From Patescibacteria group bacterium (GTDB lineage: Bacteria; Patescibacteriota; JAHJAL01): 64,000 nt of DNA. This document shows, in pieces, positions 5,173 through 19,765 of this stretch (position 1 is the stretch's first letter; each line of letters starts with the position of its first letter). Where the stretch lies: the NCBI GenBank assembly GCA_049322675.1, contig JBMORM010000009.1:92995-156994 (forward strand), given 5' to 3'. Made by a program: the position numbers and the translations under genes. Below the pieces are notes generated by a model. That model was not told the DNA's origin. It ran no database searches and saw nothing but the letters and a program-made list of their open reading frames with translations.

Positions 5173-8100
5173 TTAGTAGGTCGCGGTACAGATATATATT
5201 ATTTCGGTTTGATAAAAACCAGCCGATTGTAAATCAGTGATTTCGATTTGGTAGCCGACACGCGCTTGACCATTGATATCATTGGTGCCGGAGGTAGGAC
5301 CATGGTGATACATTACTTCTGCCGGGGCGGCGGCCAGACCAGCCCATTTGTTGGAAATAAATCTGTTTTGAACACCATTGCTTAGCATACTGTCATTGGT
5401 TGTATAACCCCAATAACCTTTTTGGCCTTCTGTGGGTTCTGTCCATTCAATCGGATTGGTATTGCTTCCGCTATAATTGTTGATCGTGTCGTTGTTACTT
5501 GATAGTGTATGTGATTGCTGAACCGTAACCACAAATCCGTCTGCTGCGTTTTGTTCGACCAAAAGATCGTGAGCGGCAACTTTTGATGAATTTGGTTCGA
5601 GTACGCCAAAATTGATTGAAGTATTAGTGGTAGGAATTGTGGTTAGAGATCCATTTACTGATTGATCTGCTTCAACACCAGAAACAGTAAATGTTAGCAA
5701 CGAAGGAATCGAGGCAGTAACCATCACGCCACCGGTGATGGCAACACGAGTTTGATGCATCATAACTGGATCGCCGCTACCATCAGTGCTTTCATAGCCA
5801 AAGAGTAAAACCAGATACGAATCAATATTGGCTGGATTTTGAACTAGATGGTCGTTGCCAATAACGATGGTAATCAAACCATTGCTTCCTCCAACCAAAG
5901 TGCCGGTAAATGGCAAGACAACGGTGTTTTGATCGGTATCAACGGTTGGCGTTCCCCAATCGACTCCACCGCCATTGACGATAATATCAGTGCTGGTCAC
6001 ACTGGAAAAATCAAATTCGGGATCAAGAGCAACTTTGAGACTGCCGTCAGTAATATCGGTATCACCGGTAATGTTGTAATGTATAGTATGTTTGCTATAT
6101 TCTTCGGCGATGGAATCCGACAAAACGTCGTTTAATGAAGCATCAATAATACTAATAGTGTCACTGGCATAATCAACGTTGTCTCCGCTACCGTCGGTTG
6201 AGGTATGAGATGTTAGATAAACCGGGTAGTCACCCAGGTCAGCTGGATTATTGATAAAATTGGTTTCACCGAGGGAAATTTCGACGGCGTCGTCACTACT
6301 ATCCAAGGATCCGCTGAAAGGAATAACGATGGTGTTTTCGATAGTATTAACGATAGCCGAGCTCCAAATAACGTCTCCTCCGGTTATCCCAATATCACTT
6401 GAGTTTAAACCAACCAAGTTGAATTGAGGAGCAAAGGTGATTTTCAAGCTGCCGTCAGTAATAATTTGTGATTGACGAATGTCATAGCGGAGAATATGAC
6501 GAGTGGGGGAAGATACTTGTGGGGAGACGATGGCATCATTGAGAGTACTATCGGTGTTGGTATCGGTCGGAGAGAAGGAGCCAAGAATTTGAACAGGGGC
6601 CTGGCCGTTGAGAGGATAGGGCCAACGATAACTACTGAAGGTAAATGGTTTGGTGGTGACACCGGAAAGGCTTCCACTGCAGTTGGAAGCATTGGAACCG
6701 CTGACGATTCTTTTGTTGTTGATTGTCGTCCCGGTGCTGCAAGTATTTAAACCGCTACTCAAAGTCTCTTGAAGATTATTGAGACTTTCATCGATAGTGA
6801 TTGTTTCTCCTAGACTACAGCGAGCCAGACTTTGATAAGCTAAAGTATCTCCGTTGTTGTTTAGCGTCATGCTGGCGGGATTGTAGGTGATTGATTGTGG
6901 AATTGAGCAAGTAAAAGTTTGAGTCAGGGTAGCCGGCGTACCATAATTGTCATCAGCATCGATACTAAAAACTCGGTAATTGATCTGATGACCATTGGCC
7001 TTGTAAACATCAATTTCAGCGTCAATATTGGTGTCGGTAGTGGTACCAATATCAATCCAGGCCGGCTCACCACCAACCGGATTGTAGTCGTAATAGTAAT
7101 AACCGTCGATTTTAAAAATGGCCGGACCAGCTCCCATGTCTAAGTCGCCTTGGATATATACCGTGTCGCCTTCGATTGGTAGGGTAAGTTTGTGATAATA
7201 AGATTGATAGGCTTCACTGCCTATGACATACTCCAAATCTCTAGCAAGGGAATCAACCACATATCCTTCTTTGTCCACAAAGATTACACCTTGGTAGTAT
7301 TGATAGTCATAAACTTCGTGTGCATTTTGAACACTAGTTAGATCCAATTCAATAGCATAAGCACCAGGGTGCGATATCTCCCAATCTATTTGAGTATCAC
7401 CGGTCGTTTCCGCGGGGAAACCTGGAGTGGCTAGATCATAATCCACCCAGTGTTTATAGCGATAATAGTATTGAGCCTTGTAGCGGCTAGCTCCGGTTAC
7501 TGTATCCCAGGACAGATGAGGAGTAATAACTCGAATACCACAGGCCGGACAGGTATCGTTGACGCTTAGATTGGTTGGCGCCGCAGGCATGGTTGAACAA
7601 TTGACGGTAATGGTTGCAGGATTGTAAGAATATATTTCTTTATAGCGACGATTTTCCAAAAAATAACTTGTAGTTGATTCATAACCACCGATTTTTGGCG
7701 CATAAGTATAGGTTTGTCCATCGATGACATTTTCGTCAATTATTGTCTGGTATTCATTGGCTTGTCGTTGGTAATAACCCATACCGGTATCAACTCTGCT
7801 TTCAAAACGATCGATAGCAAAATAAACTGGGGAACTATAATAAATCCAAGAACCTTCATATTCGCTATAGTAAGGAAAAGTGGTAGTAAAATTATAAACC
7901 ACTTTAATCGTATCTCCAGGAGCTGTCATAGAGTAACAAATATCATCCCAGGCCCCACCGATTAAATTGTCATTTTTGTCATAAAATTCCACAGAGGCGC
8001 CATAAGCCAAACGTGAAGCAGAAATGTGAGCCCTAACTTCGGCAGCACCAGGTTTGGTATATATCCAGGTTTGAGTCACGTTGGTCGGAGAGGCGGCCGG

Positions 8101-11100
8101 ATAATTGGGAGACATGACAGTAGTAGTCAGATCTTGTTCCCAGGTGCTGGTAGTGCCGGAAAATTTTTCTAACCACAAGGGAGAACTTGAACCAGTGTCG
8201 CGACCGGGTACGACAATGTTTACCTTGGGATTACTTGTATCCGAACAATCAGCAAAAGCGTAAGAAATAGTATTGTCTCCCGTGGGACAGGTGCCGGATA
8301 CGGTAACAATATTGCTAGTAGCCAATGGTCGCCATTGATCATCAACCGCCCAAACTATATATTTTCTATTAACTGAATCTAGTAGGTCAACAGAATAAGA
8401 TAATTGATCATCTACATAAGAAAAAGCATAATAACTCTCATAACTACTATCATATTGCGGAATAAGGACAACATATCCACTTGCACCTTCAATAGCATTC
8501 CAGGAAAGATTTACTTTTCCGGCTTGACGATTGTACAAAGCATCATATTCGCTACAATCCCAATTGCCACTAAGGGTCAAGTTGTCATTGAGTACATTTA
8601 CATCGGCTGTACCGGATAGAGCACCGTAACCCTCAAAGTTGTTGACAGTAGCCGTCATGGTGCCGCTGCAAGGCGGCATTCCTTCGGCACTATTGGCGTC
8701 GTCCCATTCGACTCGATTGATATGAAAACCAAAATATCCCTCGCGATCAACCGTTGCGTTAAAAGTAATATTAATGGTAGATCCATTGACTATATTACTA
8801 TAAAAAGGAGCGAAGCCGTCATGAGTGGACTGATCTACTCCATTTACTTTTACATTGTCCGGCCAAAGGACATAGTAATCAAAATATACACGCATGCGAG
8901 TTGCACCGGGTTTATTGATGGTATAACTAACCGAATCTCCGGCATTCCAGCCGGTGACCAAATCAGGATAGTTTGGTGAGGACAAGTCGATTTCCTCTGA
9001 ATTGGTGCCAAAGAAATAACCACTGTTGTCTGTGAGAACGATGCTGGAGCTGGCAGAACGAATATCGTTAGAATTGCCAACCGAAATGTTGCTGCGACAT
9101 GACAACAAATTACTGTCGAAAGTAATATTGCCTAGGCCACCACTGCCCGTAAAGAAATAATTTGGAACATTGTATTTTTTGCCGGTATTGTCCAAATAAT
9201 ATTCGTCACCACAGGTAACATAGGTAGTGACTGGAGCCGAAGAGCCGAGATTCATCATACTTACCGGATTGGGATTGATTTCTAAACCGTCCGGCCGGCC
9301 GCAAGGACCAAAAGATTGAGTAGCATAAATGTAATTTGGCGCGCAATTTTGTCCGTCACATGTTTTTGCTCTAAAATAAATTGTCTGTCCACCAAGGGTA
9401 GCTTTGGGTGGAGTCCAGGTCACAGAATTACTATTGGTCGTGTTGATGGTCTGCCATCCTGAACTATCTTGCGTCCAACGGTAATAATCTATCTTGAAAC
9501 GTCGAGCCAACGCCTCGTCAAAAAGCCGGCAATTTGCAGTATTGGCATTGTCGGGATACGAAGTTGCCTCGTGCTTGATGTAAGCTACTGATGTAAGACG
9601 AAGTTTGACTGTATCGCCATTGACGGTATAGACATTGGGACAACCATCCACATTGCAGGTATGCAAAACATTATCGCTTGCATCCATTATTTGTAGTCTA
9701 TCTTGCGGATAATTGCCGACTCCGGAAGAAAATTCATAATATCCACATTGGTCATAATCCCATTTGAATTCATCAAAATGAATTTGGATCTGCGAAGCAC
9801 CGGCTTTTTGAATAGTCCAGTCATAGGTATTATCTGAATTGGGCCAAATATATGGGTAATTTGGCGAGGAAATGTCAATTGGTTCGGAATTCCAGTTGTA
9901 GGTATTGTTGTTGTTTTCGTAAATGTCGCGAATCTCATCCTTGCTTAAAGCGCGATCATAGACTCGCAAATAATCATATTTTCCCTGAGCATATTGGTCT
10001 GTTCCCCAGCCGGTGCGACCAAGATATATCGGCATTAGACCGGTGTTGGACAAATCAATATCGGCCGGTCCGCTGCATACTGTCTGACCATCGATATAAA
10101 AGTCAATTTGGTTATTGCTGCGATCATAGCTGACGGCATATTGTTGCCAATTGTGAAGCAAAGGGGTGTAAGCGCAGGAAGTATGATCGGATTCACTACC
10201 AAAAACAAGACCTTGGTTTTCATCCAGGCCAAATTGCCAGAAATTGTCACGAGCAAAAATTGGGAAATATCCTCCAGCCATTTGATCTATTTTGGCCATA
10301 GTTTCGATGGTAACTTGATCGTTGTTTTCAATATCTTGCATAATCGCTCCACCACCGGTTTGATAGCGATAACTGTCAATTTGCCAACCAGTATCATTGT
10401 CACTATCGTTGGTTATGAATTTTAGTTTGATGGTATCGGTCAAAAAATATGGGGTATCGAAAGATCCTAAATTTCCGCTGTATTCTGCCAACAAATTATC
10501 ACTATTGTCCAAAATTTGTAGATAATCATTTTCATCAAAAGTATTGAAGACGGAAAAATGCAAAGAAATATTATTAGCTCCAGGTTGAGTAATAGTTTGA
10601 GTTTGATCGGTATTGGAATCGTAGTTGTAGGGATAGTTGGACGAATATATTCCTTGTTGGTTTAAAACATTATAACTATTTAATAGCCAACCTCTTCCTC
10701 CTCCACATTGACGCAACATGCGGATTTTGGCTGTTTCGCCTCCCACTACTACGTCAAATGAAGGCATGTTCCAGCCTCGGTACGTCCCCACTACATTATT
10801 GCTCGTGTCCAACACCTGAACATAGTCGCAGCTGGGATCATCATTGACATCAAAATCAGCGAAATGAAGATTGAGATAATCGGCCCCAACACTATTTATT
10901 GTCCATATTTTTGGAGCATAATAACGATATTTATCTATCTTGAAACCACTCTGATTAGTGTCGCCATCGGTTAACAATCTGATTTTGAGCTTGGGGATTC
11001 CACTATATAAATCTGTCCAAAATGACCCTAGTTCTCCGTTGAGACTGGTCAATAAATTGTCATCGCCATCGTATATTTCCAAAGAATCTGATCCATCCAA

Positions 11101-14100
11101 ATTGAAACGAGAGAAATGCAATTGATAACCGTCGGCATTTGCATCTTCAAATTCCCACCATTGATCAGTATTTGCCGGATAATAGCTGGGATAATTGGGG
11201 GAATTGACAGTGGTGTTTTTTTCCTGCCAGACCATACCATTATCCGTGAAATCAATTTTTTCATAGCTGTCAATCAAGAATCCCGGGCCTGTATTGCTGT
11301 CATTGCTGACAAAATGAACTTTGATTTGGTTGGTATCATAAAAATCACTCCATTCATCAGTTGTATTCCCGTTGTATGTTCTTAATAAATTATCTTCTGC
11401 GTCATACAAATCGATATAGTCAACACCTTCTTCGATGTCTATCACGGAAAAGTGAACACGAATTCTGGCGGTATTGGAGCCGGGGTTGATTTCCTGCCAG
11501 GTGTCATCATTGTCATTGTAGTTTGCCGGATAGTTGGGAGAAGCCACATTCAGGCCATCTATATAGATTGGATCATTTACCTCATAATCATCAGGATAAT
11601 TGGGAGACGACAAACCTTGTTGACTATCATAACTTGAGATACGGAAACCGCGTGCAGTATTGGAACCGTCGGCGACAAAATGAATTTTGACTAGATCTCC
11701 TGGCACCCAATCACTGGTAAAAGACCCAAGGTCGCCGCTATATGTCGTAATCACATTGTCGTTTTTGTCAAGCAGCTCGACAAAATCTTGAGTTTCTTCG
11801 GTGGCGAAATCCGAAAAATTCAAACGTATTCTGGTGGCCCCCGGATGATTTATTTCCCACCACCTATCAGTACTATCCAAATAATCTTGAGGGTAATTAT
11901 CCGATCTGATCGAACGACCATATTCGTATTTGTCGATCAGGAAACCGGCAAAGTTGGCCGAACCGTCGCTGACAAAATGAACTTTGATCCGATCTCCACC
12001 TACCCATTCGCTATAAAAGGCACCGAGGTCGCCGCTATATGTTTCTTGAACGTTGTCATTGCCATCCAATATTTCCACAAAATCATATCCTTCTTCGGTC
12101 TCAAAGTCAGCAAAATGTACTCGCATTTCGGTAGCATTGGGCTCATATATTTCATACCATTGGTCTTGGTTTTCATTGTATTGTGATGGATAACGACTAG
12201 AAGAAGGCGCCTGGCTCGCTTGATAATAATCAATCAGCCAGCCTTTGTAATTGTTGTCACTATCGGTATAAAAAGAGTAGTTGAAGACATCGCCACTAAT
12301 GGCCGGACTAAAAGATGATCCGAGGTTTCCCGATAAACTATATCCGTCGGTAGCAAAACCCGCATAGTTAAATTGATCAACGCCTTCTTCGGTTACAAAA
12401 TCATCGAAGTGAACTCGAATCATTCTGGCGTCGGGATGCCAGATCTGATAATTTTCCAATGACAAATCACTGTCATAATCACTAGGGTAATTGGGAGAAC
12501 TTTCAAGGTAATTGGTTCCACCCGAATCGCTCAAAGAAAAAGTTTGCCATTCAAACACGACTTCTTGATTACTAAGATTGTTGGTTTGCAAACCAATGCT
12601 TTGTTCAGTATTGGTATTGGTTCCATAGGAATGAGTATTGGTTGTTGCCTCTTCACCGACAACCAAATAATCATCCACACCATCGGTCTGAACGGAACTT
12701 TTGTATATAGCGTCGGATGACCAGCCTTCAGACGAAGAGCCGTCCAAGCCGGTAGTGGAGGCCACGGTCATATTACGTAAAATCGCATTACAGTCTCCGC
12801 CACAACTGCCATCGTTATTGAAAGCGGTGGTTATGTTTGTGCCAGACAAAGCATCATTGAAATTCCACTGGGCCAATAAGCCGGTCGTATTGCTGATTTT
12901 TTCCGGAATAGTGGTACTGCCGGAAGTGGACCATTCGACTTGAGTTTGTTGAGTGGGACTGTTACTATTTTGTGTCCAGGAAATATTGACTGTGCCAGTG
13001 GAGCTATTACAACTGGGACAACCGCCGGAGACAGTCAGATTGACGGGGTTTTTGGGGCGACATTGGATATTGGCAATTTGATATTCACTTTCAATAATAT
13101 CGCCATTCAACAATTTGATTTGAACTTTATAACTATAGGAATTTCCGCTATCAATATTCATATCTAGTAATTCGTTGTCATCGACCGAAACAGGACTTAA
13201 TATTTGGCGACTAACGCTGCCAAAATCATCTTTGAAAATATATGTTGATTCAATATTTTGCAGTTGAGTCCAATTCAATTTGATGGATGGAGTGGCGGAT
13301 TCACAATCGATAACGTAGCTCAATTCGATCACTGGTTGATAAGCAAACAAATCGGAGTTGCAATAAAGTGGCACAGTCACTTTGTCCACGCTGGGAACAG
13401 AATAATGCGGGAATTGATAATGTTTTTGTAATGTTTCTCCAGATGGCCAGAATAATAAATCCAGATCATAGGTGGTAGTTTGGTCGGTCTCGCTAGCCAA
13501 ATTTAAATCATAGGTATAAACCGGCATGTGAGCATAAACCCGATAAGTAGCGGCACAATCGGCGATGCCGTCATTATTGTCGTCAGGGTCTATGTCGTCG
13601 GCCCAGCTATCATTGTCGCTATCCGTGTCATCGGTATTATTGATGCCATCGCCATCCAAATCCAAATCCCAAGAATTGCTTTCGCTATCATTGTCCAAGT
13701 CAAAATCATAATCAATCTCATCCGCATCGGCGATGCCGTCATTGTCATCATCGACATCCAAATAATCAGGAATGCCATCATTGTCGTCGTTCAGATCTTT
13801 ATTGTTGTTGAATGTATCAGCGTCAATATCGTAGTCCAGATAATTTTTTCGACCATTGTCATCCAAATCATCATCAGGATCACTGGCACCTCCGCCGCTA
13901 TCTTCGTCGTCAATATTTGGCGTTCCGTCATTGTCTTGATCAACATCTTGCCAATCAGCTATGCCATCATTGTCGTCGTCCTGGTCGATTTCCAAATTGT
14001 CAGGTGTGCCGTTGGCGTTGTTGTCGGCATCAAATGTATTGGGAATACCGTCATTATCAACGTCTTGTTCTTGGTAATTGGGAACACTATCGGAGTCAAG

Positions 14101-16626
14101 ATCACCGTTGGGATCGATGAATCCGGGAAAAACCGTCCAATTGATCCCGTCGTTGTCTTTGTCAAAATCATCGCCGTTGAGAATACCGTCATTATCCAAA
14201 TCGTTGTCCGCGTCAGGAGTTGTAGTCGCACCATATGCGGGATCCTCAATATCGACAATACTATTATTGTTTAAGTCTCGGGTGCGATAGTTGGCGCGAT
14301 CGATAAAACCATCCAAATCACTATCATTGCGACATTGATCATTGTCAACACAAGTAGCTTCACAGCTAGACAATTCAATGTCGGAATAGCCGGGCGAGGT
14401 GGGATAGCGGAAGAAATCAGTTGAGATTTCTTGCAGCCTTAGGTCCCAGTCGTAGGGTTTTGCCCAGTTGTCATATACATCATCGCCAGTCAAGTCATAC
14501 CAGACAGCAGTAATATTTTCCCAAATATTTTTGGTTGGCCCCAAAGGTAGTTCATCGCGAGTAAGGTAATAGCGCTGGGCATCGGTAACTTTGTCCCAAT
14601 TTAGTTTGACTATTGGTTTTTGTCCCTGACATTTGGTAGAGGCCTGGATAGAAAATTCGGGAGCGGAAAAATCAGGATTATTGATCACTACTTTTCTTTC
14701 ATTTGGCTGATTATTGTATTCATTCTCCTCTTCCAAATTGATTGATGACGGATCAGTAGTTAAACCGCCAGTTTTGATTCGAAATGGCAAATCAAAATTG
14801 CCGGTATAACTGTAATACGGACCAAAATTTAAGGGGGTGGCGCCAGCCGGTTGATACGACATCGAGAGAGTAACTTTGGTTTGAATACGATGAAAAGGGT
14901 GAGATAGATCATTTTCCGCAAACGAAGCAGTAAAGGTAGAATTGGAAAGGTAGTCATCGAGAGTAGTTTGATTGGGATTGATAACCGTATCGCCCAAAGA
15001 AATATTTTTCAGTTGGTTGTTGCTATCGGTATAGCCGTAATCCAAATCGGTGCGAAAGGCGTCATCCAACCAAGCTTGAATATCAGTTTGAGCGGAGTGG
15101 TTGACACAGTTGAGATCCTGGACAGCGATCGAGAGATTAATAGAATCATTTTGATCGTATATGCCTTGGTCGAGGTTGAAGTTGTAGGCAAAATCACCAA
15201 TCACTTCCCCGCCGTATGTAGTTTGAACATAATATGTTTTGGCTTCCGCTGCCTGTTGATAAAAAACAAACAAGCCACCAAACCCGATAATCGCCCAAAG
15301 AGTCAATTTACTTAGTTGCGAATATCGCTTTTTGACGATTAGCCAGCCGATTAAGCAAATGACAATCAAAACCAGAAAATAAATGATGTAATCCAAGATT
15401 TTAGCTTTAGCAAATTTGTCCGGTGATTTGGCTGGTTGTTTATATTGATATTCCAAGGTGGAAAGGATTTTATTGTTGTCCAGAGTTTGGTTGGCGACAA
15501 TCTCGGACTTAATAATTGGTTCAACGCACTTGGAAGATAAGGAAACAGGGAAACTAAATATTTTATTTAGATTGTTTTCGAGTTTCTTTTGATAGTTTTC
15601 GCTACAAGCATGACCATCTTTTTGATCGATAATAATTAATGATAGAGTTGCGTCGGACAATTGACTTGGGATACCTAGACGATTATTGATTACTCGATCG
15701 GCCGAGTCAGACCAAAAAACGCGAGCAACCGTCGTCTCGTCTGCTTCAAAAATCGCTTTGTCCAAACTAACATTTTGAATAGTAGCGGATGGACCAGCGA
15801 TGACAAAATGAATCGGAACTATTCCGCCGATTACCTCCGATTGATTGGTAGATACGATCAATTTTGCTTCATAGGCTTGTGGAGAAAGATCATTGATTGG
15901 GGGTAAATTCCAACTGACTTCTCGGCTTTCGCTGGGCTTAAGAGTGACCGGTTGATCAAGTGAAGATGCATTTACTTTTTCACCGGCCAAAGAGCGATAA
16001 TAAACGGAAAAATCGGGATCAATGTTTAAGTTTTGGTTAATCGGGTTTTTGAGTTGGCAGATAATTTGCAAAGATTCTTCTCTTTTAACAACCACACCCT
16101 CACTGACTGAATATTTTTGGGAAGAATTATTGTTTTCACCTTCAATTGCGAGATGACAGGATTTTTCGCTAATATTCAAGGTTAATTTTTTTTCGGGCAA
16201 ATCGATCGTCCCAGCTTTAATATTACCCAAAGGAAGAGAATTGCTGTTGACGGCTATCACCCAAACATCGATTTTTCCCTGTACATAAGTTGGCAATTTG
16301 TAGGTGATTTTTGTCGATTTGTATTCGTCGGGATTCAACGACAGTTTTTGGCCACTCATCCATTGATCGATTATCTTTTCACTTCCTTCTTGGTTTTTCA
16401 TAATCTTGATTCCGAGCCGTATGTCACCTTGCAATTGATTTCCGTTTTGCAACCCAAAATTTATTTCCAATTGTTGATTACGGTTATTTTGTACTGATGC
16501 ATCCACAATATCCATGTCGGCTACCAAGGTGGTCTGCCAGTCGGTATTATTGGCGGCAAAGACCGGTGCAGGGACAAGAAAGAAAAGACAAATAATGATT
16601 GGTTGTATTTTTTGGAATAGAGTCAT
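5173..16626 (-). CDS. Giant (3,817 aa) secreted/membrane-anchored multidomain protein with about 10 CUB-like domains, thrombospondin-type-3-like calcium-binding repeats, Fn3-like and LamG-like modules
   Basis: The ORF is uninterrupted. It begins with a signal peptide (MTLFQKIQPIIICLFFLVPAPVFA). It contains repeated ~110-aa units matching the CUB consensus but lacking the canonical cysteines: SPNYPxxY..W.I....I.L.F..F..E...D...I.DG....GS....IKVHFVSD.S..GF.I..Y. A tract of about 250 aa carries DNDGIPD/DxDxDGxxD repeats. A LamG/ConA-like segment is present (...YLGRTGWGTDQYAQGKYDYLRVYDRALSKDEI). The C-terminal region holds two tandem ~150-aa repeats (TDGSLKITFAPQF.. / TDGSLKVALDPEF..). Confidence 0.75.
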   Translation of the reverse strand: MTLFQKIQPIIICLFFLVPAPVFAANNTDWQTTLVADMDIVDASVQNNRNQQLEINFGLQNGNQLQGDIRLGIKIMKNQEGSEKIIDQWMSGQKLSLNPDEYKSTKITYKLPTYVQGKIDVWVIAVNSNSLPLGNIKAGTIDLPEKKLTLNISEKSCHLAIEGENNNSSQKYSVSEGVVVKREESLQIICQLKNPINQNLNIDPDFSVYYRSLAGEKVNASSLDQPVTLKPSESREVSWNLPPINDLSPQAYEAKLIVSTNQSEVIGGIVPIHFVIAGPSATIQNVSLDKAIFEADETTVARVFWSDSADRVINNRLGIPSQLSDATLSLIIIDQKDGHACSENYQKKLENNLNKIFSFPVSLSSKCVEPIIKSEIVANQTLDNNKILSTLEYQYKQPAKSPDKFAKAKILDYIIYFLVLIVICLIGWLIVKKRYSQLSKLTLWAIIGFGGLFVFYQQAAEAKTYYVQTTYGGEVIGDFAYNFNLDQGIYDQNDSINLSIAVQDLNCVNHSAQTDIQAWLDDAFRTDLDYGYTDSNNQLKNISLGDTVINPNQTTLDDYLSNSTFTASFAENDLSHPFHRIQTKVTLSMSYQPAGATPLNFGPYYSYTGNFDLPFRIKTGGLTTDPSSINLEEENEYNNQPNERKVVINNPDFSAPEFSIQASTKCQGQKPIVKLNWDKVTDAQRYYLTRDELPLGPTKNIWENITAVWYDLTGDDVYDNWAKPYDWDLRLQEISTDFFRYPTSPGYSDIELSSCEATCVDNDQCRNDSDLDGFIDRANYRTRDLNNNSIVDIEDPAYGATTTPDADNDLDNDGILNGDDFDKDNDGINWTVFPGFIDPNGDLDSDSVPNYQEQDVDNDGIPNTFDADNNANGTPDNLEIDQDDDNDGIADWQDVDQDNDGTPNIDDEDSGGGASDPDDDLDDNGRKNYLDYDIDADTFNNNKDLNDDNDGIPDYLDVDDDNDGIADADEIDYDFDLDNDSESNSWDLDLDGDGINNTDDTDSDNDSWADDIDPDDNNDGIADCAATYRVYAHMPVYTYDLNLASETDQTTTYDLDLLFWPSGETLQKHYQFPHYSVPSVDKVTVPLYCNSDLFAYQPVIELSYVIDCESATPSIKLNWTQLQNIESTYIFKDDFGSVSRQILSPVSVDDNELLDMNIDSGNSYSYKVQIKLLNGDIIESEYQIANIQCRPKNPVNLTVSGGCPSCNSSTGTVNISWTQNSNSPTQQTQVEWSTSGSTTIPEKISNTTGLLAQWNFNDALSGTNITTAFNNDGSCGGDCNAILRNMTVASTTGLDGSSSEGWSSDAIYKSSVQTDGVDDYLVVGEEATTNTHSYGTNTNTEQSIGLQTNNLSNQEVVFEWQTFSLSDSGGTNYLESSPNYPSDYDSDLSLENYQIWHPDARMIRVHFDDFVTEEGVDQFNYAGFATDGYSLSGNLGSSFSPAISGDVFNYSFYTDSDNNYKGWLIDYYQASQAPSSSRYPSQYNENQDQWYEIYEPNATEMRVHFADFETEEGYDFVEILDGNDNVQETYSGDLGAFYSEWVGGDRIKVHFVSDGSANFAGFLIDKYEYGRSIRSDNYPQDYLDSTDRWWEINHPGATRIRLNFSDFATEETQDFVELLDKNDNVITTYSGDLGSFTSDWVPGDLVKIHFVADGSNTARGFRISSYDSQQGLSSPNYPDDYEVNDPIYIDGLNVASPNYPANYNDNDDTWQEINPGSNTARIRVHFSVIDIEEGVDYIDLYDAEDNLLRTYNGNTTDEWSDFYDTNQIKVHFVSNDSNTGPGFLIDSYEKIDFTDNGMVWQEKNTTVNSPNYPSYYPANTDQWWEFEDANADGYQLHFSRFNLDGSDSLEIYDGDDNLLTSLNGELGSFWTDLYSGIPKLKIRLLTDGDTNQSGFKIDKYRYYAPKIWTINSVGADYLNLHFADFDVNDDPSCDYVQVLDTSNNVVGTYRGWNMPSFDVVVGGETAKIRMLRQCGGGRGWLLNSYNVLNQQGIYSSNYPYNYDSNTDQTQTITQPGANNISLHFSVFNTFDENDYLQILDNSDNLLAEYSGNLGSFDTPYFLTDTIKLKFITNDSDNDTGWQIDSYRYQTGGGAIMQDIENNDQVTIETMAKIDQMAGGYFPIFARDNFWQFGLDENQGLVFGSESDHTSCAYTPLLHNWQQYAVSYDRSNNQIDFYIDGQTVCSGPADIDLSNTGLMPIYLGRTGWGTDQYAQGKYDYLRVYDRALSKDEIRDIYENNNNTYNWNSEPIDISSPNYPYIWPNSDNTYDWTIQKAGASQIQIHFDEFKWDYDQCGYYEFSSGVGNYPQDRLQIMDASDNVLHTCNVDGCPNVYTVNGDTVKLRLTSVAYIKHEATSYPDNANTANCRLFDEALARRFKIDYYRWTQDSSGWQTINTTNSNSVTWTPPKATLGGQTIYFRAKTCDGQNCAPNYIYATQSFGPCGRPDGLEINPNPVSMMNLGSSAPVTTYVTCGDEYYLDNTGKKYNVPNYFFTGSGGLGNITFDSNLLSCRSNISVGNSNDIRSASSSIVLTDNSGYFFGTNSEEIDLSSPNYPDLVTGWNAGDSVSYTINKPGATRMRVYFDYYVLWPDNVKVNGVDQSTHDGFAPFYSNIVNGSTINITFNATVDREGYFGFHINRVEWDDANSAEGMPPCSGTMTATVNNFEGYGALSGTADVNVLNDNLTLSGNWDCSEYDALYNRQAGKVNLSWNAIEGASGYVVLIPQYDSSYESYYAFSYVDDQLSYSVDLLDSVNRKYIVWAVDDQWRPLATSNIVTVSGTCPTGDNTISYAFADCSDTSNPKVNIVVPGRDTGSSSPLWLEKFSGTTSTWEQDLTTTVMSPNYPAASPTNVTQTWIYTKPGAAEVRAHISASRLAYGASVEFYDKNDNLIGGAWDDICYSMTAPGDTIKVVYNFTTTFPYYSEYEGSWIYYSSPVYFAIDRFESRVDTGMGYYQRQANEYQTIIDENVIDGQTYTYAPKIGGYESTTSYFLENRRYKEIYSYNPATITVNCSTMPAAPTNLSVNDTCPACGIRVITPHLSWDTVTGASRYKAQYYYRYKHWVDYDLATPGFPAETTGDTQIDWEISHPGAYAIELDLTSVQNAHEVYDYQYYQGVIFVDKEGYVVDSLARDLEYVIGSEAYQSYYHKLTLPIEGDTVYIQGDLDMGAGPAIFKIDGYYYYDYNPVGGEPAWIDIGTTTDTNIDAEIDVYKANGHQINYRVFSIDADDNYGTPATLTQTFTCSIPQSITYNPASMTLNNNGDTLAYQSLARCSLGETITIDESLNNLQETLSSGLNTCSTGTTINNKRIVSGSNASNCSGSLSGVTTKPFTFSSYRWPYPLNGQAPVQILGSFSPTDTNTDSTLNDAIVSPQVSSPTRHILRYDIRQSQIITDGSLKITFAPQFNLVGLNSSDIGITGGDVIWSSAIVNTIENTIVIPFSGSLDSSDDAVEISLGETNFINNPADLGDYPVYLTSHTSTDGSGDNVDYASDTISIIDASLNDVLSDSIAEEYSKHTIHYNITGDTDITDGSLKVALDPEFDFSSVTSTDIIVNGGGVDWGTPTVDTDQNTVVLPFTGTLVGGSNGLITIVIGNDHLVQNPANIDSYLVLLFGYESTDGSGDPVMMHQTRVAITGGVMVTASIPSLLTFTVSGVEADQSVNGSLTTIPTTNTSINFGVLEPNSSKVAAHDLLVEQNAADGFVVTVQQSHTLSSNNDTINNYSGSNTNPIEWTEPTEGQKGYWGYTTNDSMLSNGVQNRFISNKWAGLAAAPAEVMYHHGPTSGTNDINGQARVGYQIEITDLQSAGFYQTEIIYICTATY

Positions 16627-16670: not shown

Positions 16671-18458
16671 TTATTCGCTGGCCGGTCGGACGCAGATAGC
16701 TAATCTTTCTTCGGTTTTGTATACACTTTTTATTTTTATTTTATACACAATATTTAGAGTATCTTCTTGGTTTTGAGCAGTATTGCGTGGCCAGAAATAG
16801 TAAGCCGTGGCCCGTTCATCACTAAAATTATATATATTGTATTCGAGACAGGAACCTCCCGTACAAATTGGACAACCATAAGCATCCCAAACTGGATTAC
16901 ATGTGTACACTGGATATCCTTGGTTAGCTCCAATTGGACCATCTTCGTTGGAGGACCAAGCATACATTACGTCCCAATTTGAGCTTCCCGTTTCATAGTC
17001 ATAAGGAGGATTATCTGGAAAACCAAAACTTTTTTGGATGTAATTGGAAAGATGACGATCAGTTTCATTGCTATTCCATAGTTGCGCTAAAACTGCTCTA
17101 ATTTGACTCAATTGATAGAGGGAAGGTAAATACCAATCTATGTAATCATAATCGGTTTTATTCCAACAATACGAAGCTGCCGGATTGTTGGGGAGACCAT
17201 TTTCAACCAAAGTTTTGGTGTTGTCATAACCGTTGACCCAGTCTTGAGTTGTTAATTCATTGAAACCTTCGGTTGTGGACCATTTTTGATAAGGGTTATT
17301 TACGGAAACAATCAATGGGCCAATTTTTATTCCACCGCCGCACTTGGTACCATTGGGATAATCTTCTTTGCATGGTCGTTGATAATCGTTGTCTGATGGC
17401 GGATCGGGATTTTCGTAATCACAATTTGGGTTTTCGGCCGGGTCGCAAGGTCCGGGGTTGGTAATATTTTCCGGATCGGCCGGGTCGGGTTCGGGGTCAC
17501 CTCCACCGCCGCCGGGAGTTTTCGGATCCCCGCAATTGACATAAACGGTAACATCGTTGGAATACAAACAACGATAACTGAAACGATAATGATAGAGACG
17601 ATGATTGAGAACATCCAAATCTGTAGTCGACACTTTGCCGACAGAGCCATTGATAATCTTGTAATCGTTTGCAGTGATGCGATCGTCATACAATGGCGCA
17701 GCACAGATATAGTCATCGATCATCACCTGACAATATTGGCTGGTATATTTTTGACCGGCACCCTTGATAAAACCACCGGTAACATAAAGACTATTTCCAA
17801 GACCGATACGACCCGGGCAATATAATTCAGCCAATTCGCTATTGTTGGATGTATTAATGTCATTGGTATAGGCGGAAAATAAATGAACTTTGGCTCGACC
17901 ACTGGAACAATCGACAGTCGCTTCCAGAGGGGAATTGGAATAAAAGTTGGCTTCAAAATATTCTTCGCGACAAATTGTGCTGGTGTCGCCGCTGGAATTA
18001 ATGGATTCAACCAGGTTGGTCATCTCTTTCCCTGCTTGAGTATTGAGCAAACTACAACCCAGATAATAACTCGTATCGCTATCGGGCGGACAAATCGGGT
18101 TTTGACGAACATTGGTTTGAGGGGTGGAAAAACAAGCTTTGTAACGTAATTTGTCTCCGGGTTTCAAAGTGGGCAAAGCTGTGCCGGTATCAATATTGAA
18201 TAGTGTTTTCTTTTCCAAACTTTGGTCAGCATATTTGTAGTAGGTGTATTCAACTTTGGTATCGGTTTTGCTTTCGCATTGAGCGCCGACGAAATTCATG
18301 CTAATATTCCAAGATTCATCAGCGGTGCCTTTATTATCAATTTGCAGCCTGGGCCAAATATCACAGGCATAAGCTTGACTACTGATGCCACGGACGGCTA
18401 AAACAAAAAGGAAGAGATAAAAAAACGATTTGATAAAGTTAAAAAATTTTTTGTCCAT
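16671..18458 (-). CDS. Secreted Cys-rich protein with Pro/Asp-rich linker and C-terminal DUF1566 (Lcl C-terminal)-like domain
   Basis: 595 aa. It has a signal peptide (..FLFVLAVRGISSQAYA), a PGGGGGDPEPDPADPENITNPGP linker and a C-terminal DWYLPSLYQLSQI motif that resembles the DUF1566 W-LPT..EL core. Confidence 0.45.
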   Translation of the reverse strand: MDKKFFNFIKSFFYLFLFVLAVRGISSQAYACDIWPRLQIDNKGTADESWNISMNFVGAQCESKTDTKVEYTYYKYADQSLEKKTLFNIDTGTALPTLKPGDKLRYKACFSTPQTNVRQNPICPPDSDTSYYLGCSLLNTQAGKEMTNLVESINSSGDTSTICREEYFEANFYSNSPLEATVDCSSGRAKVHLFSAYTNDINTSNNSELAELYCPGRIGLGNSLYVTGGFIKGAGQKYTSQYCQVMIDDYICAAPLYDDRITANDYKIINGSVGKVSTTDLDVLNHRLYHYRFSYRCLYSNDVTVYVNCGDPKTPGGGGGDPEPDPADPENITNPGPCDPAENPNCDYENPDPPSDNDYQRPCKEDYPNGTKCGGGIKIGPLIVSVNNPYQKWSTTEGFNELTTQDWVNGYDNTKTLVENGLPNNPAASYCWNKTDYDYIDWYLPSLYQLSQIRAVLAQLWNSNETDRHLSNYIQKSFGFPDNPPYDYETGSSNWDVMYAWSSNEDGPIGANQGYPVYTCNPVWDAYGCPICTGGSCLEYNIYNFSDERATAYYFWPRNTAQNQEDTLNIVYKIKIKSVYKTEERLAICVRPASE

Positions 18459-18464
18459 TGTAAA

Positions 18465-19094
18465 TTATTGATTGATCATTATTTGTTTCAATAAAAGATT
18501 TTTATTGTTCCAATCCCAGGTCCACCATACAGTGGCGGGTTGATTTTGAATATTTGACCATTGATCAGTCGAGATAGAGTTCATATCCTGGTTGATAATC
18601 AACTGAGGATTGACTAGAGAGTATATATAGTTTTGACCCTGCCAATTTAACGAGATTTGATTGTTGGTAGGATCAATATTGTTAATAATTAATTCGATTC
18701 CGGAGTGAAGTTTAATTTTAATAAGAGTAATAGTCGGTTTATCAGTTATCATTTGGTAGGTAACTTCAATCTGGTGGGGATTGGATATCAAATTTTTAAA
18801 ACTTACCTGATCGGTCTGAATCAAAGTACCATCGCTTTCCAAAACGAAAATATCAGCTGCGGATAGACCGGCCAATTTATATCGCAAATCCTGATCTTGA
18901 ATGATCAAGTCATCATCAGGCATGGAAACGACATGTCCCACTACTGATTGATAACTGCTATTTGTCTGATTATTATTAACCGATGATTGTTGGGTAAAAT
19001 ATTTTTGACTCAGCCACCAACCGCCGATAGATAATAATAAGACAAAAATTAGATAATAATATTTTTTTAAAGGCCAACGAGTGGTCATAATCAA
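18465..19094 (-). CDS. N-terminally membrane-anchored hypothetical protein
   Basis: 209 aa with a single N-terminal TM (YYYLIFVLLLSIGGWWL). Its ATGA overlap with the upstream gene implies co-translation in an operon. Confidence 0.45.
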   Translation of the reverse strand: MIMTTRWPLKKYYYLIFVLLLSIGGWWLSQKYFTQQSSVNNNQTNSSYQSVVGHVVSMPDDDLIIQDQDLRYKLAGLSAADIFVLESDGTLIQTDQVSFKNLISNPHQIEVTYQMITDKPTITLIKIKLHSGIELIINNIDPTNNQISLNWQGQNYIYSLVNPQLIINQDMNSISTDQWSNIQNQPATVWWTWDWNNKNLLLKQIMINQ

Positions 19095-19765
19095 TTTTTG
19101 ATTTCCTGGGTGTTATTGGGAATAATTTCGATTTTGGTAGCGGTGATAGTTTGTTCAGATATTTTTTTGCCGGTGATAGCTAGTTGGTTACCAACTTTCA
19201 ATTGTGAAAACGGAAGTTTTTCCGCACGCAGGTTGTGTTCGTCTTGGCCAATAATGTTGGTAGTATCGTCTGTTTGTATTTTCCAGGTGACATTACCGGC
19301 AGCAAGGGTAAAATTTTTACCGTCAACTGCGGTTACGGTACCGACGGTGGAGAACTCCGGCATTAGAATCGCTGACAAAACTTTGGTCTGTTCGTTTTCT
19401 CGCCGATAAATCAGATTGAGTTTGGCACCAACGACAATTGATTTTAAATCTGTGTTTTCAAAATCTTGATTATAGCTGCTTAGTCGCGTGACAGGAATTT
19501 TATCATTGAAAACAAATTGATAAACTTGTCCATCTTGGTCATTTTTGAGGGTAAGTTGATTGTTTTGCCACTTAGTAATTTCTCCGGTCATAGCGGAAAT
19601 TGGTTGATCAATACTCGCCGGCGGCTGACTACTAGTGAGTTGATTTTGGGTTTGACGATACCACCAAATACCGATGACAAGCAGCAAAACAAAAAGAAAA
19701 ACCAACAAAATTTTGGTTTTCGGTTGACTAAAAATTTCTTTGATTGGAGAGCGATTTTCTTCCAT
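19091..19765 (-). CDS. N-terminally membrane-anchored hypothetical protein (first gene of giant-protein operon)
   Basis: 224 aa with a single N-terminal TM (ILLVFLFVLLLVIGIWWY) and an extracytoplasmic domain. An AT-rich putative promoter region lies at 19766-19958. Confidence 0.45.
   Translation of the reverse strand: MEENRSPIKEIFSQPKTKILLVFLFVLLLVIGIWWYRQTQNQLTSSQPPASIDQPISAMTGEITKWQNNQLTLKNDQDGQVYQFVFNDKIPVTRLSSYNQDFENTDLKSIVVGAKLNLIYRRENEQTKVLSAILMPEFSTVGTVTAVDGKNFTLAAGNVTWKIQTDDTTNIIGQDEHNLRAEKLPFSQLKVGNQLAITGKKISEQTITATKIEIIPNNTQEIKN

What the first reader, a model, noticed from the sequence alone, without database searches (positions are those of the whole stretch)
5173..19765. Four-gene surface operon ending in a 3,817-aa protein built from eukaryote-type CUB domains, TSP3-like Ca-binding repeats and a LamG-like module
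Four co-directional minus-strand genes are separated by 6, 44 and an overlapping ATGA (two N-terminally anchored proteins, then a secreted Cys-rich protein with a DUF1566-like C-terminus, then an 11.4-kb ORF). The giant ORF encodes about 10 repeats that fit the CUB consensus (SPNYP..Y...W.I......I.L.F..F..E...D...I.DG.....G......IKVHFVSD.S..GF.I..Y) but lack the canonical disulfide cysteines. It also carries a roughly 250-aa DNDGIPD/DxDxDG aspartate-rich tract and a ConA/LamG-like segment. CUB arrays are characteristic of animal extracellular proteins, so such a mosaic in a small-genome bacterium points to an adhesin for attachment to a partner or host cell. An ECF sigma/anti-sigma-like pair converges on its 3' end, and superoxide reductase plus rubrerythrin lie just beyond.
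Basis: partly seen in the sequence, partly recalled or inferred. Interest (0 to 1): 0.75.

Follow-up and report, generated by a model that had tools for sequence, protein, structure and literature searches.

The report
Giant CUB adhesin ending in pilin
An uncultured ultra-small (Patescibacteria/CPR) bacterium encodes a real 3,817-residue surface protein that strings animal-type calcium-binding CUB domains onto a pilus-subunit-like tail and is fused to its own membrane-anchored partner, making it a concrete candidate for how such bacteria grip their host cells.

Summary
The four minus-strand genes and the 11.4-kb ORF are real. A 91%-identical, 3,818-aa ortholog from another assembly rules out repeat collapse. 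Pfam confirms CUB (E 2.6e-59) and Laminin_G_3. I count 11 CUB-like modules, four to six of them with an intact Ca2+-site triad. The acidic tract matches TSP_3 only below threshold. DUF1566 is not supported, and the "ATGA overlap" is wrong.

- The last 321 aa are a complete two-domain pilin-like module, preceded by an extra N-domain copy. It belongs to a CPR-only family of ~350-aa proteins distantly related to the newly described Pam pilus pilins.
- The ORF fuses two units: a signal peptide, three Ig-like domains and a C-terminal TM helix, then an internal signal peptide (AEA|KT) heading the giant passenger. In a relative these are two overlapping genes.
- The whole four-gene cassette is duplicated in the genome.

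Best reading: a Ca2+-dependent host or partner adhesin, cut from its membrane-anchored partner and held or displayed through a strand-complementing pilin-type tail. The assembly steps are inferred, not shown. NCBI already names it "CUB domain-containing protein". I rate it a new variant of known adhesin kinds.

The parts
19091..19765 (-). Gene 1: 224 aa, N-terminal membrane anchor plus a beta-rich ectodomain (DUF5666)
   Evidence: ORF. DUF5666 hit, E 9e-7, at aa 142-213. Hydrophobic segment at aa 18-36. The paralog next to P0002 is 24% identical, E 5e-13.
18465..19088 (-). Gene 2: 207 aa from the ATG (209 aa from the TTG at 19094), N-terminal anchor plus ectodomain, no known family
   Evidence: No Pfam or NCBIfam hit. 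The paralog is 22% identical, E 2e-6.
16671..18458 (-). Gene 3: 595-aa secreted protein with 22 Cys. The N-terminal ~310 aa are shared with the paralog's 327-aa gene; the C-terminal ~230 aa are specific to this copy.
   Evidence: 27% identity, E 4e-19, to L002:7188-8171. No DUF1566, Pfam or PDB match.
16555..16626 (-). Signal peptide 1 of the giant ORF (aa 1-24, VFA|AN)
   Evidence: Read from the sequence. Hydrophobicity scan.
15412..16554 (-). Module A (aa 25-405): three Ig/FnIII-like beta-sandwich domains with four invariant Cys and the PQAY and SATIQN..LDK motifs
15241..15411 (-). TM helix (about aa 410-432), basic loop KKRYSQLSK, then an internal signal peptide ending AEA|KT (about aa 442-462)
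   Evidence: The same TM, K/R cluster, hydrophobic stretch and [AV]xA pattern occurs in all 17 relatives examined. In L003 this position is the start of a separate gene with its own signal peptide.
14647..15240 (-). Conserved N-terminal domain of the passenger (aa 463-660; motif NFNLDQGIYDQNDSINLSIAV..C.N)
   Evidence: Shared with P0002 and P0010. The motif recurs after the internal signal peptide in most module-A fusions and in the split partners.
13558..14346 (-). Acidic tract (aa 761-1023), 32% Asp. Twelve DxDxDG motifs lie in aa 768-1020, and eight of these fit DxDxDGxxDxxD/E. Presumed Ca2+-binding loops.
   Evidence: TSP_3 is below threshold on short pieces, E 5e-4, 20 bits against 25. 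No hit for the whole tract.
10360..12498 (-). Seven tandem CUB domains (aa 1377-2089) with a 12-residue CUB stub at aa 1674-1685
   Evidence: Pfam CUB, E 2.6e-59. Boundaries from the self-HMM. PDB hits to cubilin, the TSG-6 CUB domain and Kremen-1. The Ca2+-site E/D/D triad is intact in CUB1-3 and CUB5; CUB4 and CUB7 have Asn at the third position.
9931..10323 (-). Laminin_G_3 / concanavalin-A-like lectin domain (aa 2102-2232)
   Evidence: Pfam PF13385, E 2.1e-16, 60.9 bits against a cut-off of 27.6.
7072..9867 (-). Four divergent CUB-like modules (aa 2254-2385, 2550-2643, 2839-2950, 3067-3185) separated by Cys-paired FnIII/Big-like spacers
   Evidence: Self-HMM E values of 2e-8, 4e-8, 3e-8 and 6e-3. 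The Ca2+-site residues are mostly lost. The equivalent modules in paralog P0002 are clearer CUBs.
6142..6570 (-). Extra copy of the pilin N-domain (aa 3353-3495)
   Evidence: The profile of the ~350-aa pilin family matches here at positions 31-168, E 8e-14.
5176..6138 (-). Complete Pam-like pilin module (aa 3497-3817): N-domain, connecting strand and C-domain
   Evidence: NCBIfam CPR_Pam_pilin_C covers model positions 2-148 of 148, E 2e-6 to 5e-7, 28-30 bits, below the cut-off of 55. 660 representatives match; most are 340-400-aa proteins aligned end to end. 39 of 60 of these hit the same model. The family profile matches positions 39-362 of 362, E 4.5e-91. AF2 model with pLDDT 90 shows two beta-sandwich domains.
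5110..5143 (-). Terminator-like hairpin (15-bp stem, A-run before and T-run after) in the 113-nt convergent spacer
3703..5059 (+). Converging ECF-type sigma factor (3703-4296) and a multi-pass membrane protein (4289-5059, anti-sigma-like by position only)
   Evidence: Sigma70_r2 E 8e-19 and r4_2 E 2e-13. The membrane protein has only a weak BOF hit and no similarity to gene 1.

Best explanation
The 3,817-codon ORF is a genuine gene of a Patescibacteria (CPR) bacterium. It encodes a two-part surface precursor.

**Part A (aa 1 to about 440).** It enters the Sec pathway by an N-terminal signal peptide. It folds outside the cell into three Ig/FnIII-like domains. It stays in the membrane through a C-terminal TM helix followed by a cytoplasmic KKRYSQLSK loop.

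**Part B (aa about 463-3817).** It is threaded out by a second, internal signal peptide. Signal peptidase most likely cuts it free at AEA|KT (inferred). Part B is a fibre of about 3,350 aa, made up in order of:
- a conserved N-terminal beta domain;
- a 260-aa acidic tract of EF-hand/TSP3-type loops, presumed to bind Ca2+ and stiffen the fibre;
- seven tandem and four scattered CUB domains that lack the canonical cysteines, four to six of which keep the Glu/Asp/Asp Ca2+ site that animal CUB domains use to clamp basic residues of ligands;
- one LamG lectin-like domain;
- FnIII/Big-like spacers;
- at the C-terminus, a whole pilin of the CPR-specific Pam-like family: two N-domains, a connecting strand and an open C-domain.

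**Proposed mechanism (inferred).** The pilin tail is locked by beta-strand complementation to another subunit or to a membrane-anchored partner. Part A and the N-anchored products of genes 1 and 2 are the candidates. This is the way Pam pilins, chaperone-usher tip adhesins (FimH, PapG) and WxL/WxLIP pairs are held. The CUB/LamG region then binds, Ca2+-dependently, a protein or glycan on the host or partner cell.

The three upstream genes are co-inherited accessory factors of unknown individual role.
For: **The ORF is real.** An ortholog of 3,818 aa is 91% identical. A Logan contig carries the identical ORF. There are no long DNA repeats.

**Organism and annotation.** NCBI names it 'MAG: CUB domain-containing protein [Patescibacteria group bacterium]'.

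**Binding modules.** Pfam confirms CUB and LamG. Residue-level alignment to the TSG-6, Kremen-1 and cubilin CUB domains shows the E/D/D triad conserved in CUB1-3 and CUB5.

**Pilin tail.**
- NCBIfam CPR_Pam_pilin_C matches over the full model length.
- 660 relatives are mostly stand-alone ~350-aa secreted proteins aligned end to end.
- 39 of 60 of these hit the same Pam model.
- 126 of 127 confirmed genomic loci carry Patescibacteria-type or unclassified labels; one short contig sits in a MAG labelled Gammaproteobacteria.
- The AF2 model has pLDDT 90 and two beta-sandwich domains. Structural neighbours include CsuE, PapG, FimH, TasA and TLP fibres.

**Interchangeable cargo.** Of 21 larger proteins with the same tail, 11 carry Laminin_G_3; others carry pentraxin, beta-helix, Kelch or DUF2341 modules.

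**Two-part nature.**
- In L003 part A is a separate 446-aa gene, 35% identical, overlapping by 8 nt the start of a 2,881-aa CUB/LamG/pilin protein that has its own signal peptide.
- Part A homologs occur stand-alone (430-480 aa) or fused to passengers in 41 metagenome loci.
- All 17 junctions examined have TM, K/R cluster, hydrophobic stretch and [AV]xA.
- Stand-alone part-A genes are followed at once by secreted-protein genes.

**Cassette.** The same four genes are duplicated in the same contig, at 22-35% identity. Spacing is tight and there is one terminator-like hairpin.

**Precedents.** Pam pilus donor-strand assembly uses TM-anchored chaperones and a TM anchor (bioRxiv 10.64898/2026.03.03.709456). 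In WxL clusters, a large WxL protein pairs with WxLIP, which has two Ig-like domains and a C-terminal TM helix (PMC10599100).
Against: - The Pam match is below NCBI's curated cut-off (28-30 bits against 55).
- No PamC, PamD, PamT or PamR, and no stand-alone pilin gene, is present in the window. A Nomurabacteria locus around a stand-alone family member shows no Pam parts either.
- Part A shows no specific similarity to PapD-type chaperones or WxLIP. RbmA appears only at rank 31.
- The pilin C-domain is the least conserved region between orthologs, 72% against a 91% mean. That is unexpected for a pure assembly handle.
- About seven sibling giants have uncleaved-looking N-terminal anchors. It is therefore unclear which end faces the cell.
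- Signal-peptidase cleavage, Ca2+ binding, the ligand and co-transcription are all unmeasured.
- The host is unknown.
Confidence: 0.5

Rival explanations
1. Structural fibre or matrix subunit rather than an adhesin. The pilin-type tail (TasA/TLP-like) polymerises with other copies or with stand-alone pilins. This builds a decorated fibre, sheath or biofilm matrix, with the CUB, LamG and acidic regions acting as Ca2+-stiffened spacers.
Against: A 3,300-aa N-terminal load on every subunit is hard to pack into a filament. Sibling proteins swap in lectin-like cargoes (LamG, pentraxin, Kelch), which is the pattern expected of binding specificity.
Confidence: 0.15
2. Hairpin-anchored monomeric surface protein. 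The internal hydrophobic segment is not cleaved, so parts A and B are both tethered by a TM hairpin. The C-terminal pilin-like module is then a distal, self-complemented Ig-like cap or a wall/S-layer-binding foot, with no pilus involved.
For: No Pam machinery is in the window. Several sibling giants start with uncleaved-looking N-terminal anchors. The C-domain diverges fast between orthologs, as exposed tips do.
Against: All 17 junctions examined keep small residues at positions -3 and -1 ([AV]xA). That conservation is expected only if signal peptidase cuts there. In L003 the passenger is a separate secreted protein. The tail is homologous end to end to stand-alone secreted pilin-like proteins.
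Confidence: 0.2
3. Recently acquired eukaryotic gene fragment used against a eukaryotic host. On this reading the CUB array was horizontally transferred from an animal and targets animal extracellular matrix or complement-type ligands.
For: The best solved relatives are animal proteins.
Against: Similarity to animal CUBs is remote: E about 1e-6 to 1e-7 for a two-repeat query. The disulfides are lost. There are no introns. The repeats sit in a wholly bacterial, CPR-specific framework of part A, pilin tail and LamG. Paralogs and relatives at 35-49% identity indicate long residence in this lineage.
Confidence: 0.05
4. Assembly artefact: the 11.4-kb ORF comes from collapse or chimeric joining of a shorter repetitive gene.
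For: The protein is repetitive at the amino-acid level.
Against: An independent assembly gives a collinear 3,818-aa ortholog with 3 gaps. A Logan contig carries the identical ORF. DNA repeats are at most 83 nt long and at most 85% identical. The paralog and P0010 share the same overall architecture.
Confidence: 0.01

Closest known systems
Pam pilus of CPR bacteria (PamA/PamB pilins, PamC/D TM-anchored chaperones, PamT tip, PamR anchor; Troman et al., bioRxiv 10.64898/2026.03.03.709456)
   Same: - It is CPR-restricted.
- The subunit is a secreted two-domain beta protein: an N-domain, a connecting strand and an open C-domain.
- The NCBIfam Pam C-domain model aligns over its full length to the last 150 aa here and to 39 of 60 family members.
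- The partners are Ig-like proteins with a C-terminal TM helix, the same topology as part A.
   Different: - Scores are below the curated cut-off.
- No pam operon parts are in the window.
- The pilin module sits at the end of a 3,300-aa cargo instead of standing alone.
- The family found here is labelled mostly Paceibacteria/Parcubacteria and Saccharibacteria, with one Roizmanbacteria (Microgenomatia) locus. The paper reports Saccharimonadia and Microgenomatia.
- The paper describes no adhesin-pilin fusions.
Two-domain tip adhesins of chaperone-usher pili (FimH, PapG, CsuE)
   Same: The logic is the same: an N-terminal receptor-binding part and a C-terminal pilin domain completed by a strand from the next subunit. 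Foldseek lists CsuE, PapG, FimH and FocH among the neighbours of the tail model.
   Different: The organism is monoderm and has no usher. The cargo is about 20 times larger and multi-domain. TM-scores are only 0.2-0.25. There is no sequence similarity.
WxL clusters of Firmicutes: large WxL protein plus WxLIP (DUF916-DUF3324-TM) (PMC10599100)
   Same: [quoted passage not shown] That domain is held by a partner made of a signal peptide, Ig-like domains and a C-terminal TM helix, which inserts a beta-hairpin into it. A WxLIP-WxL complex (9i25) appears among the Foldseek neighbours of the tail.
   Different: There are no Pfam WxL, DUF916 or DUF3324 hits. Part A has three domains, not two. Here the partner is fused to the N-terminus of the large protein. 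Peptidoglycan binding is unknown.
Ca2+-binding CUB domains of animal extracellular proteins (C1r/C1s/MASP, cubilin, TSG-6, Kremen)
   Same: There is a strong Pfam match. The motif order is conserved (SPNYP..Y, W.I, F..F..E, D.v.i.D, F.SD.S..GF) and includes the Glu/Asp/Asp Ca2+ triad.
   Different: The first disulfide is absent in all modules. The second is kept at most in CUB8. The context is bacterial. Five of the eleven modules have lost the triad.
Giant repetitive bacterial adhesins (RTX adhesins such as LapA or MpIBP, and SiiE)
   Same: It is a multi-thousand-residue, Ca2+-dependent modular fibre with lectin-like ligand-binding modules.
   Different: Export is by Sec rather than type I secretion. 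There are no RTX or BIg repeats. Anchoring is by a pilin-type tail and/or a fused partner rather than an outer-membrane plug.

Membership tests
CUB domain (Pfam PF00431) | Profile match above the Pfam gathering score | tested here: met
   198.8 bits against a cut-off of 21.4, E 2.6e-59, 7 stretches. 11 modules by self-HMM.
CUB domain (Pfam PF00431) | Four conserved cysteines forming two disulfides | tested here: not met
   In the alignment with the TSG-6, Kremen-1 and cubilin CUBs, Cys1 and Cys2 are absent in all modules. Cys3 and Cys4 are plausibly kept only in CUB8, and Cys3 alone in CUB6.
CUB domain (Pfam PF00431) | Ca2+-binding subset: Tyr plus the Glu/Asp/Asp triad | tested here: met
   The triad aligns in CUB1, 2, 3 and 5. 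CUB4 and CUB7 have Asn at the third position. It is lost in CUB6 and CUB8-11. Metal binding itself was not measured.
CUB domain (Pfam PF00431) | Beta-sandwich fold of about 110 residues | not tested
   No structure was predicted for a repeat. The fold is inferred from significant sequence matches to solved CUBs.
Laminin_G_3 / ConA-like lectin (PF13385) | Profile match above the gathering score | tested here: met
   60.9 bits against 27.6, aa 2102-2232, model positions 16-150 of 151.
Thrombospondin type 3 repeat (PF02412) | Profile match above the gathering score | tested here: not met
   No hit for the whole protein or the whole tract. On 58-62-aa pieces it is the top hit, but at 20 bits against a cut-off of 25, E 5e-4.
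Thrombospondin type 3 repeat (PF02412) | DxDxDGxxDxxD calcium-loop motif, with flanking Cys pairs in true TSP3 repeats | tested here: inconclusive
   There are 8 full 12-residue motifs and 12 DxDxDG cores. The tract holds only one Cys, so the TSP3 disulfide pattern is absent.
DUF1566 (Lcl C-terminal domain) for gene 3 | Profile match | tested here: not met
   No Pfam hit at E <= 0.1 for the whole protein, and none at E <= 1 for the C-terminal 229 aa. No PDB sequence hit.
Pam pilus pilin (NCBIfam NF058581 CPR_Pam_pilin_C) | Score at or above the curated cut-off (55 bits) | tested here: not met
   27.8-30 bits, E 2e-6 to 5e-7, but covering model positions 2-148 of 148. 39 of 60 family members also match, best E 5e-13. 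I read this as a distant homolog, not a curated member.
Pam pilus pilin (NCBIfam NF058581 CPR_Pam_pilin_C) | Two-domain secreted subunit (beta-sandwich N-domain, linker strand, open C-domain) | tested here: met
   End-to-end homology to ~350-aa secreted proteins. The AF2 model has pLDDT 90 and two beta domains. Whether the groove is open could not be inspected.
Pam pilus pilin (NCBIfam NF058581 CPR_Pam_pilin_C) | Assembly by donor-strand exchange into a filament | not testable with these tools
   This needs multimer prediction or cryo-EM. Pam structures are absent from the PDB copy.
Pam pilus pilin (NCBIfam NF058581 CPR_Pam_pilin_C) | pam operon context (PamC/D chaperones, PamT, PamR) | tested here: not met
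   No NCBIfam Pam component and no further pilin gene is in the 64-kb window. The rest of the 374-kb contig was not available.
Pam pilus pilin (NCBIfam NF058581 CPR_Pam_pilin_C) | Restriction to CPR bacteria | tested here: met
   127 confirmed loci in GTDB representative genomes. 126 carry Patescibacteria-type or unclassified labels, and one short contig sits in a MAG labelled Gammaproteobacteria.
WxL / WxLIP system | WxL domain and DUF916/DUF3324 profile matches | tested here: not met
   No Pfam hit for the tail or for part A at E <= 5. This is an analogy of architecture only.
PapD-like periplasmic chaperone (as a possible identity of part A) | Two-lobed Ig-like chaperone fold | tested here: not met

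The most novel reading that the evidence does not exclude
Part A (signal peptide, three Ig-like domains, TM helix), the internal signal peptide and the conserved 'NLN..Y.PGE' N-domain together define an undescribed surface-display system of uncultured, probably CPR, bacteria. The carrier and passenger are made as one precursor, or as two overlapping genes. Signal peptidase separates them, and they are then re-joined outside the cell by non-covalent docking or strand complementation. In the CUB giants this system is coupled to a Pam-like pilin tail. That would yield the first candidate host-recognition adhesins of the newly found CPR pilus class.
Probability: 0.3. Interest if true: 0.75.

Novelty: new variant of a known kind. 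Interest (0 to 1): 0.6.

Why it matters
Patescibacteria make up a large share of bacterial diversity, and all cultivated members so far live attached to other microbes (PMC12206443). The molecules that recognise the host are still largely unknown.

The 2026 Pam-pilus preprint states that it is not known how those filaments contact the host. It describes no adhesin.

This locus and its roughly 20 siblings show pilin-type tails carrying exchangeable lectin-like or CUB cargoes. That is the layout expected of specificity-determining adhesins, and it gives concrete proteins to test.

The recurrent "anchor protein, internal signal peptide, passenger" fusion has no family assignment in Pfam or NCBIfam. 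It may be a general CPR display mechanism.

The cysteine-free CUB modules that still keep the Ca2+ site also show this "animal" ligand-binding module working in a bacterial, disulfide-poor setting.

Tried and rejected
**Searches that found nothing**
- Pfam on ten sub-segments of the giant at E <= 5 gave nothing for part A, the N-domain, the spacers or the tail.
- A PDB sequence search of the acidic tract, of the gene 3 C-terminus and of the pilin-family profile returned no hits.
- The exact-sequence look-up of the 822-aa ORF at 46518-48986, tried to map the window, found nothing on record.
- NCBIfam found no Pam parts around a stand-alone pilin in a complete Nomurabacteria genome.
- Literature searches for CUB domains in CPR or in bacteria, and for giant CPR surface proteins, found nothing relevant.

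**Searches of limited power**
- The whole-protein homology search returned only the protein itself and its paralog. The word prefilter was probably swamped by the Asp-rich query, because later domain-wise searches worked.
- Fold searches of both AF2 models returned only generic Ig-like neighbours. They neither prove nor disprove a Pam, PapD or WxLIP relationship.

**Ideas rejected**
- The anti-sigma-like neighbour does not share a domain with gene 1. BLASTP gives no similarity.
- Part A is not a PapD-like chaperone.
- The ORF is not an assembly collapse.
- The CUB array is not a recent eukaryotic transfer: similarity to animal CUBs is remote and the framework is CPR-specific.

Full report
**1. 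The observation**

The window holds four co-directional minus-strand ORFs at the stated coordinates:
- 19765-19091, 224 aa;
- 19088-18465, 207 aa from the ATG. The tool lists a TTG start at 19094;
- 18458-16671, 595 aa;
- 16626-5173, 3,817 aa.

The gaps of 6 and 44 nt are correct. The claimed ATGA overlap is not there. The gene 1 stop overlaps a TTG (TTGA), and the first in-frame ATG follows after a 2-nt gap.

A strong terminator-like hairpin sits 30 nt after the last stop, at 5143-5110. It has a 15-bp stem and a T-run. Nothing comparable separates the four genes.

The neighbours are as described:
- a converging ECF sigma (Sigma70_r2 and r4_2) with a membrane protein;
- then rubrerythrin, desulfoferrodoxin and a NYN protein.

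The rest of the window is housekeeping: PcrA, an Opp-type binding protein, IF-3, GreA, LysRS and PriA.

**2. The giant ORF is real**
- The identical protein is on an independently assembled Logan contig.
- NCBI holds it as MFZ5391795.1, [quoted passage not shown], on a 373,927-bp contig.
- A member of the same 90% cluster from another assembly, P0005, is 3,818 aa and 91% identical, with only three gaps end to end.
- DNA repeats inside the ORF are at most 83 nt long and at most 85% identical.

Collapse of a shorter repetitive gene is therefore excluded.

**3. Domain calls**

*CUB.* Pfam gives CUB at E 2.6e-59 with 7 stretches, and Laminin_G_3 at E 2e-16 for aa 2102-2232. An HMM built from six repeats finds eleven CUB-like modules:
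- seven in tandem across aa 1377-2089, with a 12-residue stub at aa 1674-1685;
- four divergent ones at aa 2254-2385, 2550-2643, 2839-2950 and 3067-3185.

A two-repeat query hits cubilin, the TSG-6 CUB domain and Kremen-1 among solved structures.

In the joint alignment, the Glu/Asp/Asp residues that ligate Ca2+ in this class of CUB are conserved in CUB1-3 and CUB5. CUB4 and CUB7 have Asn at the third position. The triad is lost in CUB6 and CUB8-11.

The first canonical disulfide is absent everywhere. CUB8 plausibly keeps the second.

*Acidic tract.* Residues 761-1023 are 32% Asp. Twelve DxDxDG cores lie in aa 768-1020, and eight of them fit DxDxDGxxDxxD/E. TSP_3 is not reported on the whole tract. 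On short pieces it is the top hit but below threshold: 20 bits against 25, E 5e-4.

*Gene 3.* It has a signal peptide and 22 Cys but no DUF1566 or any other family match.

**4.

NCBIfam NF058581, "CPR_Pam_pilin_C, Pam pilus system pilin subunit", aligns over its whole length (positions 2-148 of 148) to the last 150 residues. The E-value is 2e-6 to 5e-7, and the 28-30 bits are below the curated cut-off of 55.

An exhaustive HMMER search with aa 3370-3817 finds 660 cluster representatives. Most are 340-400-aa proteins that align from just after their signal peptide to their last residue with aa 3497-3817 of the giant.
- Thirty-nine of 60 of these also hit the Pam model, with a best E of 5e-13.
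- A profile of them matches the giant at positions 39-362 of 362 (E 4.5e-91). It also matches an extra N-domain copy at aa 3353-3495 (E 8e-14).
- In GTDB representative genomes the family gives 127 confirmed loci. Of these, 126 carry Patescibacteria-type or unclassified labels (Kaiser-, Nomura-, Falkow-, Pacei-/Parcubacteria, Saccharibacteria, one Roizmanbacteria). One short contig sits in a MAG labelled Gammaproteobacteria.
- The AF2 model of the tail is confident (pLDDT 90) and shows two beta-sandwich domains.

Structural neighbours are generic Ig-like proteins. They include CsuE, PapG, FimH, TasA and TLP fibres and Gram-positive pilins, at low TM-scores. Pam structures are not in the PDB copy.

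The Pam pilus was described in 2026 (bioRxiv 10.64898/2026.03.03.709456). Its pilins have an N-domain, a donor "linker" strand and an open Ig-like C-domain. Its chaperones PamC and PamD, and its anchor PamR, carry C-terminal TM helices. No adhesin is described.

The tail here is best called a distant Pam-like pilin, not a curated member.

**5. The tail carries interchangeable cargo**

Twenty-one larger proteins (670-3,354 aa) end in the same module. Eleven carry Laminin_G_3. Others carry Laminin_G_2, pentraxin, DUF2341, beta-helix, Kelch or propeller modules.

CUB arrays occur only in this protein, its paralog P0002 and P0010. A single CUB occurs in P0011.

This is the pattern of a common assembly handle with swappable binding heads.

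**6.

Residues 405-462 read TM helix, then KKRYSQLSK, then a signal-peptide-like stretch ending AEA|KT. The paralog has the same arrangement, ending VYA|KT.

In the relative P0010 (locus L003, from a different sample) the two parts are separate genes:
- a 446-aa protein, 35% identical to aa 34-378 here, that ends in a TM helix and KKRNV*;
- overlapping it by 8 nt, next to a run of seven A's, the start of a 2,881-aa CUB/LamG/pilin protein that begins with its own signal peptide (VRA|AT).

Part A has stand-alone homologs of 430-470 aa and other fusions. In 41 metagenome loci it is either alone or the N-terminal part of 680-1,566-aa ORFs.

All 17 junctions read show TM, K/R cluster, hydrophobic stretch and [AV]xA. 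This is usually followed by a domain with the motif N(L/T)N(L/K)..Y.PGE.I....C.N, present here as NFNLDQGIYDQNDSINLSIAV..C.N.

Where part A is alone, a secreted-protein gene follows at once.

**7. The cassette is duplicated**

P0002 (MFZ5391985.1, 2,681 aa, 35% identical to the giant) lies on a contig of the same 373,927-bp length. Its accession is 190 protein numbers away, so I take it to be on the same contig. It has the same architecture.

It is preceded by homologs of genes 1-3, of 226, 186 and 327 aa. These are 24%, 22% and 27% identical. The ortholog locus L087 keeps all four genes.

Genes 1-3 were not found next to other part-A or pilin-tail loci.

**8. Mechanism**

Shown:
- the gene is real;
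- CUB and LamG content;
- conservation of the Ca2+-site residues in four to six CUBs;
- a complete Pam-like pilin tail;
- the bipartite precursor architecture, with split and fused forms;
- CPR restriction of the tail family;
- duplication of the cassette.

Inferred:
- signal-peptidase cleavage at AEA|KT;
- Ca2+ binding;
- adhesion to a host or partner cell;
- tethering of the tail by strand complementation to a pilus subunit or to a membrane-anchored partner (part A, or the products of genes 1 and 2).

The closest functional precedents are Pam pili, FimH/PapG-type two-domain tip adhesins, and WxL/WxLIP pairs. [quoted passage not shown]

Open points:
- Which end faces the cell is unresolved. 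About seven sibling giants have uncleaved-looking N-terminal anchors.
- The pilin C-domain is the least conserved region between orthologs, 72% against a 91% mean.
- No pilus machinery is present in the window.

**9. Verdict**

Two of its family calls fail (DUF1566) or are only sub-threshold (TSP3). It also missed the two features that say most about how the protein works.

The CUB content is already in the public annotation. The pilin-tailed giant adhesin class and the part-A/internal-signal-peptide fusion have no family assignment in Pfam or NCBIfam, and my literature searches found no description of them.

I rate it a new variant of known kinds (giant modular adhesin, or a tip adhesin with a pilin domain), with interest 0.6.

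Noticed in passing
window 40803-43046, 44242-46494, 46518-48986 (+): Three large consecutive ORFs (747, 750 and 822 aa) have no NCBIfam match. They lie in a stretch with strongly positive AT skew (about 40-50 kb) and may be further surface proteins.
   Followed up: partly
window 51506-53701 (+): The lysyl-tRNA synthetase (aa 11-492) carries a C-terminal HDIG/HD-domain extension (aa 564-638 and beyond). This is an unusual fusion.
   Followed up: no
window 5176-5706 (aa 3641-3817 of the giant) compared with P0005: The pilin C-domain is the most divergent region between the two orthologs, 72% identical against 91% overall. CUB9 is 100% identical. This could reflect recombination with other pilin genes or selection on an exposed surface.
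   Followed up: partly
L003 1366-1383: The split between the part-A gene and the giant gene in the relative P0010 lies next to a run of seven A's. A single-base change would fuse the frames, so fusion and fission of this pair may be easy, or even phase-variable.
   Followed up: partly
L090 6897-12757; L126 6973-12709; L006 2313-6158; L109 347-4669: Part-A genes or fusions occur as tandem or nearby pairs in several metagenome contigs. The two L090 copies are nearly identical around the junction.
   Followed up: no
L004 14420-20093: One part-A fusion (P0164) lies beside a 696-aa PKD-like protein and type IV pilus genes (PilB-like T2SSE and PilC-like T2SSF). A reverse-transcriptase gene (RVT_1) sits between pilB and pilC.
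   Followed up: no
window 19959-20426 (+): A DUF333 protein (E 4e-22) is encoded divergently, just upstream of gene 1, across a very AT-rich 193-nt spacer.
   Followed up: no
window 16671-17360 (gene 3, aa 367-595): The C-terminal ~230 aa of gene 3 are absent from the paralogous cassette's gene 3 (327 aa). They match no family, although a few motifs (..YC..., DWYLPS..QL, ..ICVRP) look DUF1566-like by eye.
   Followed up: partly
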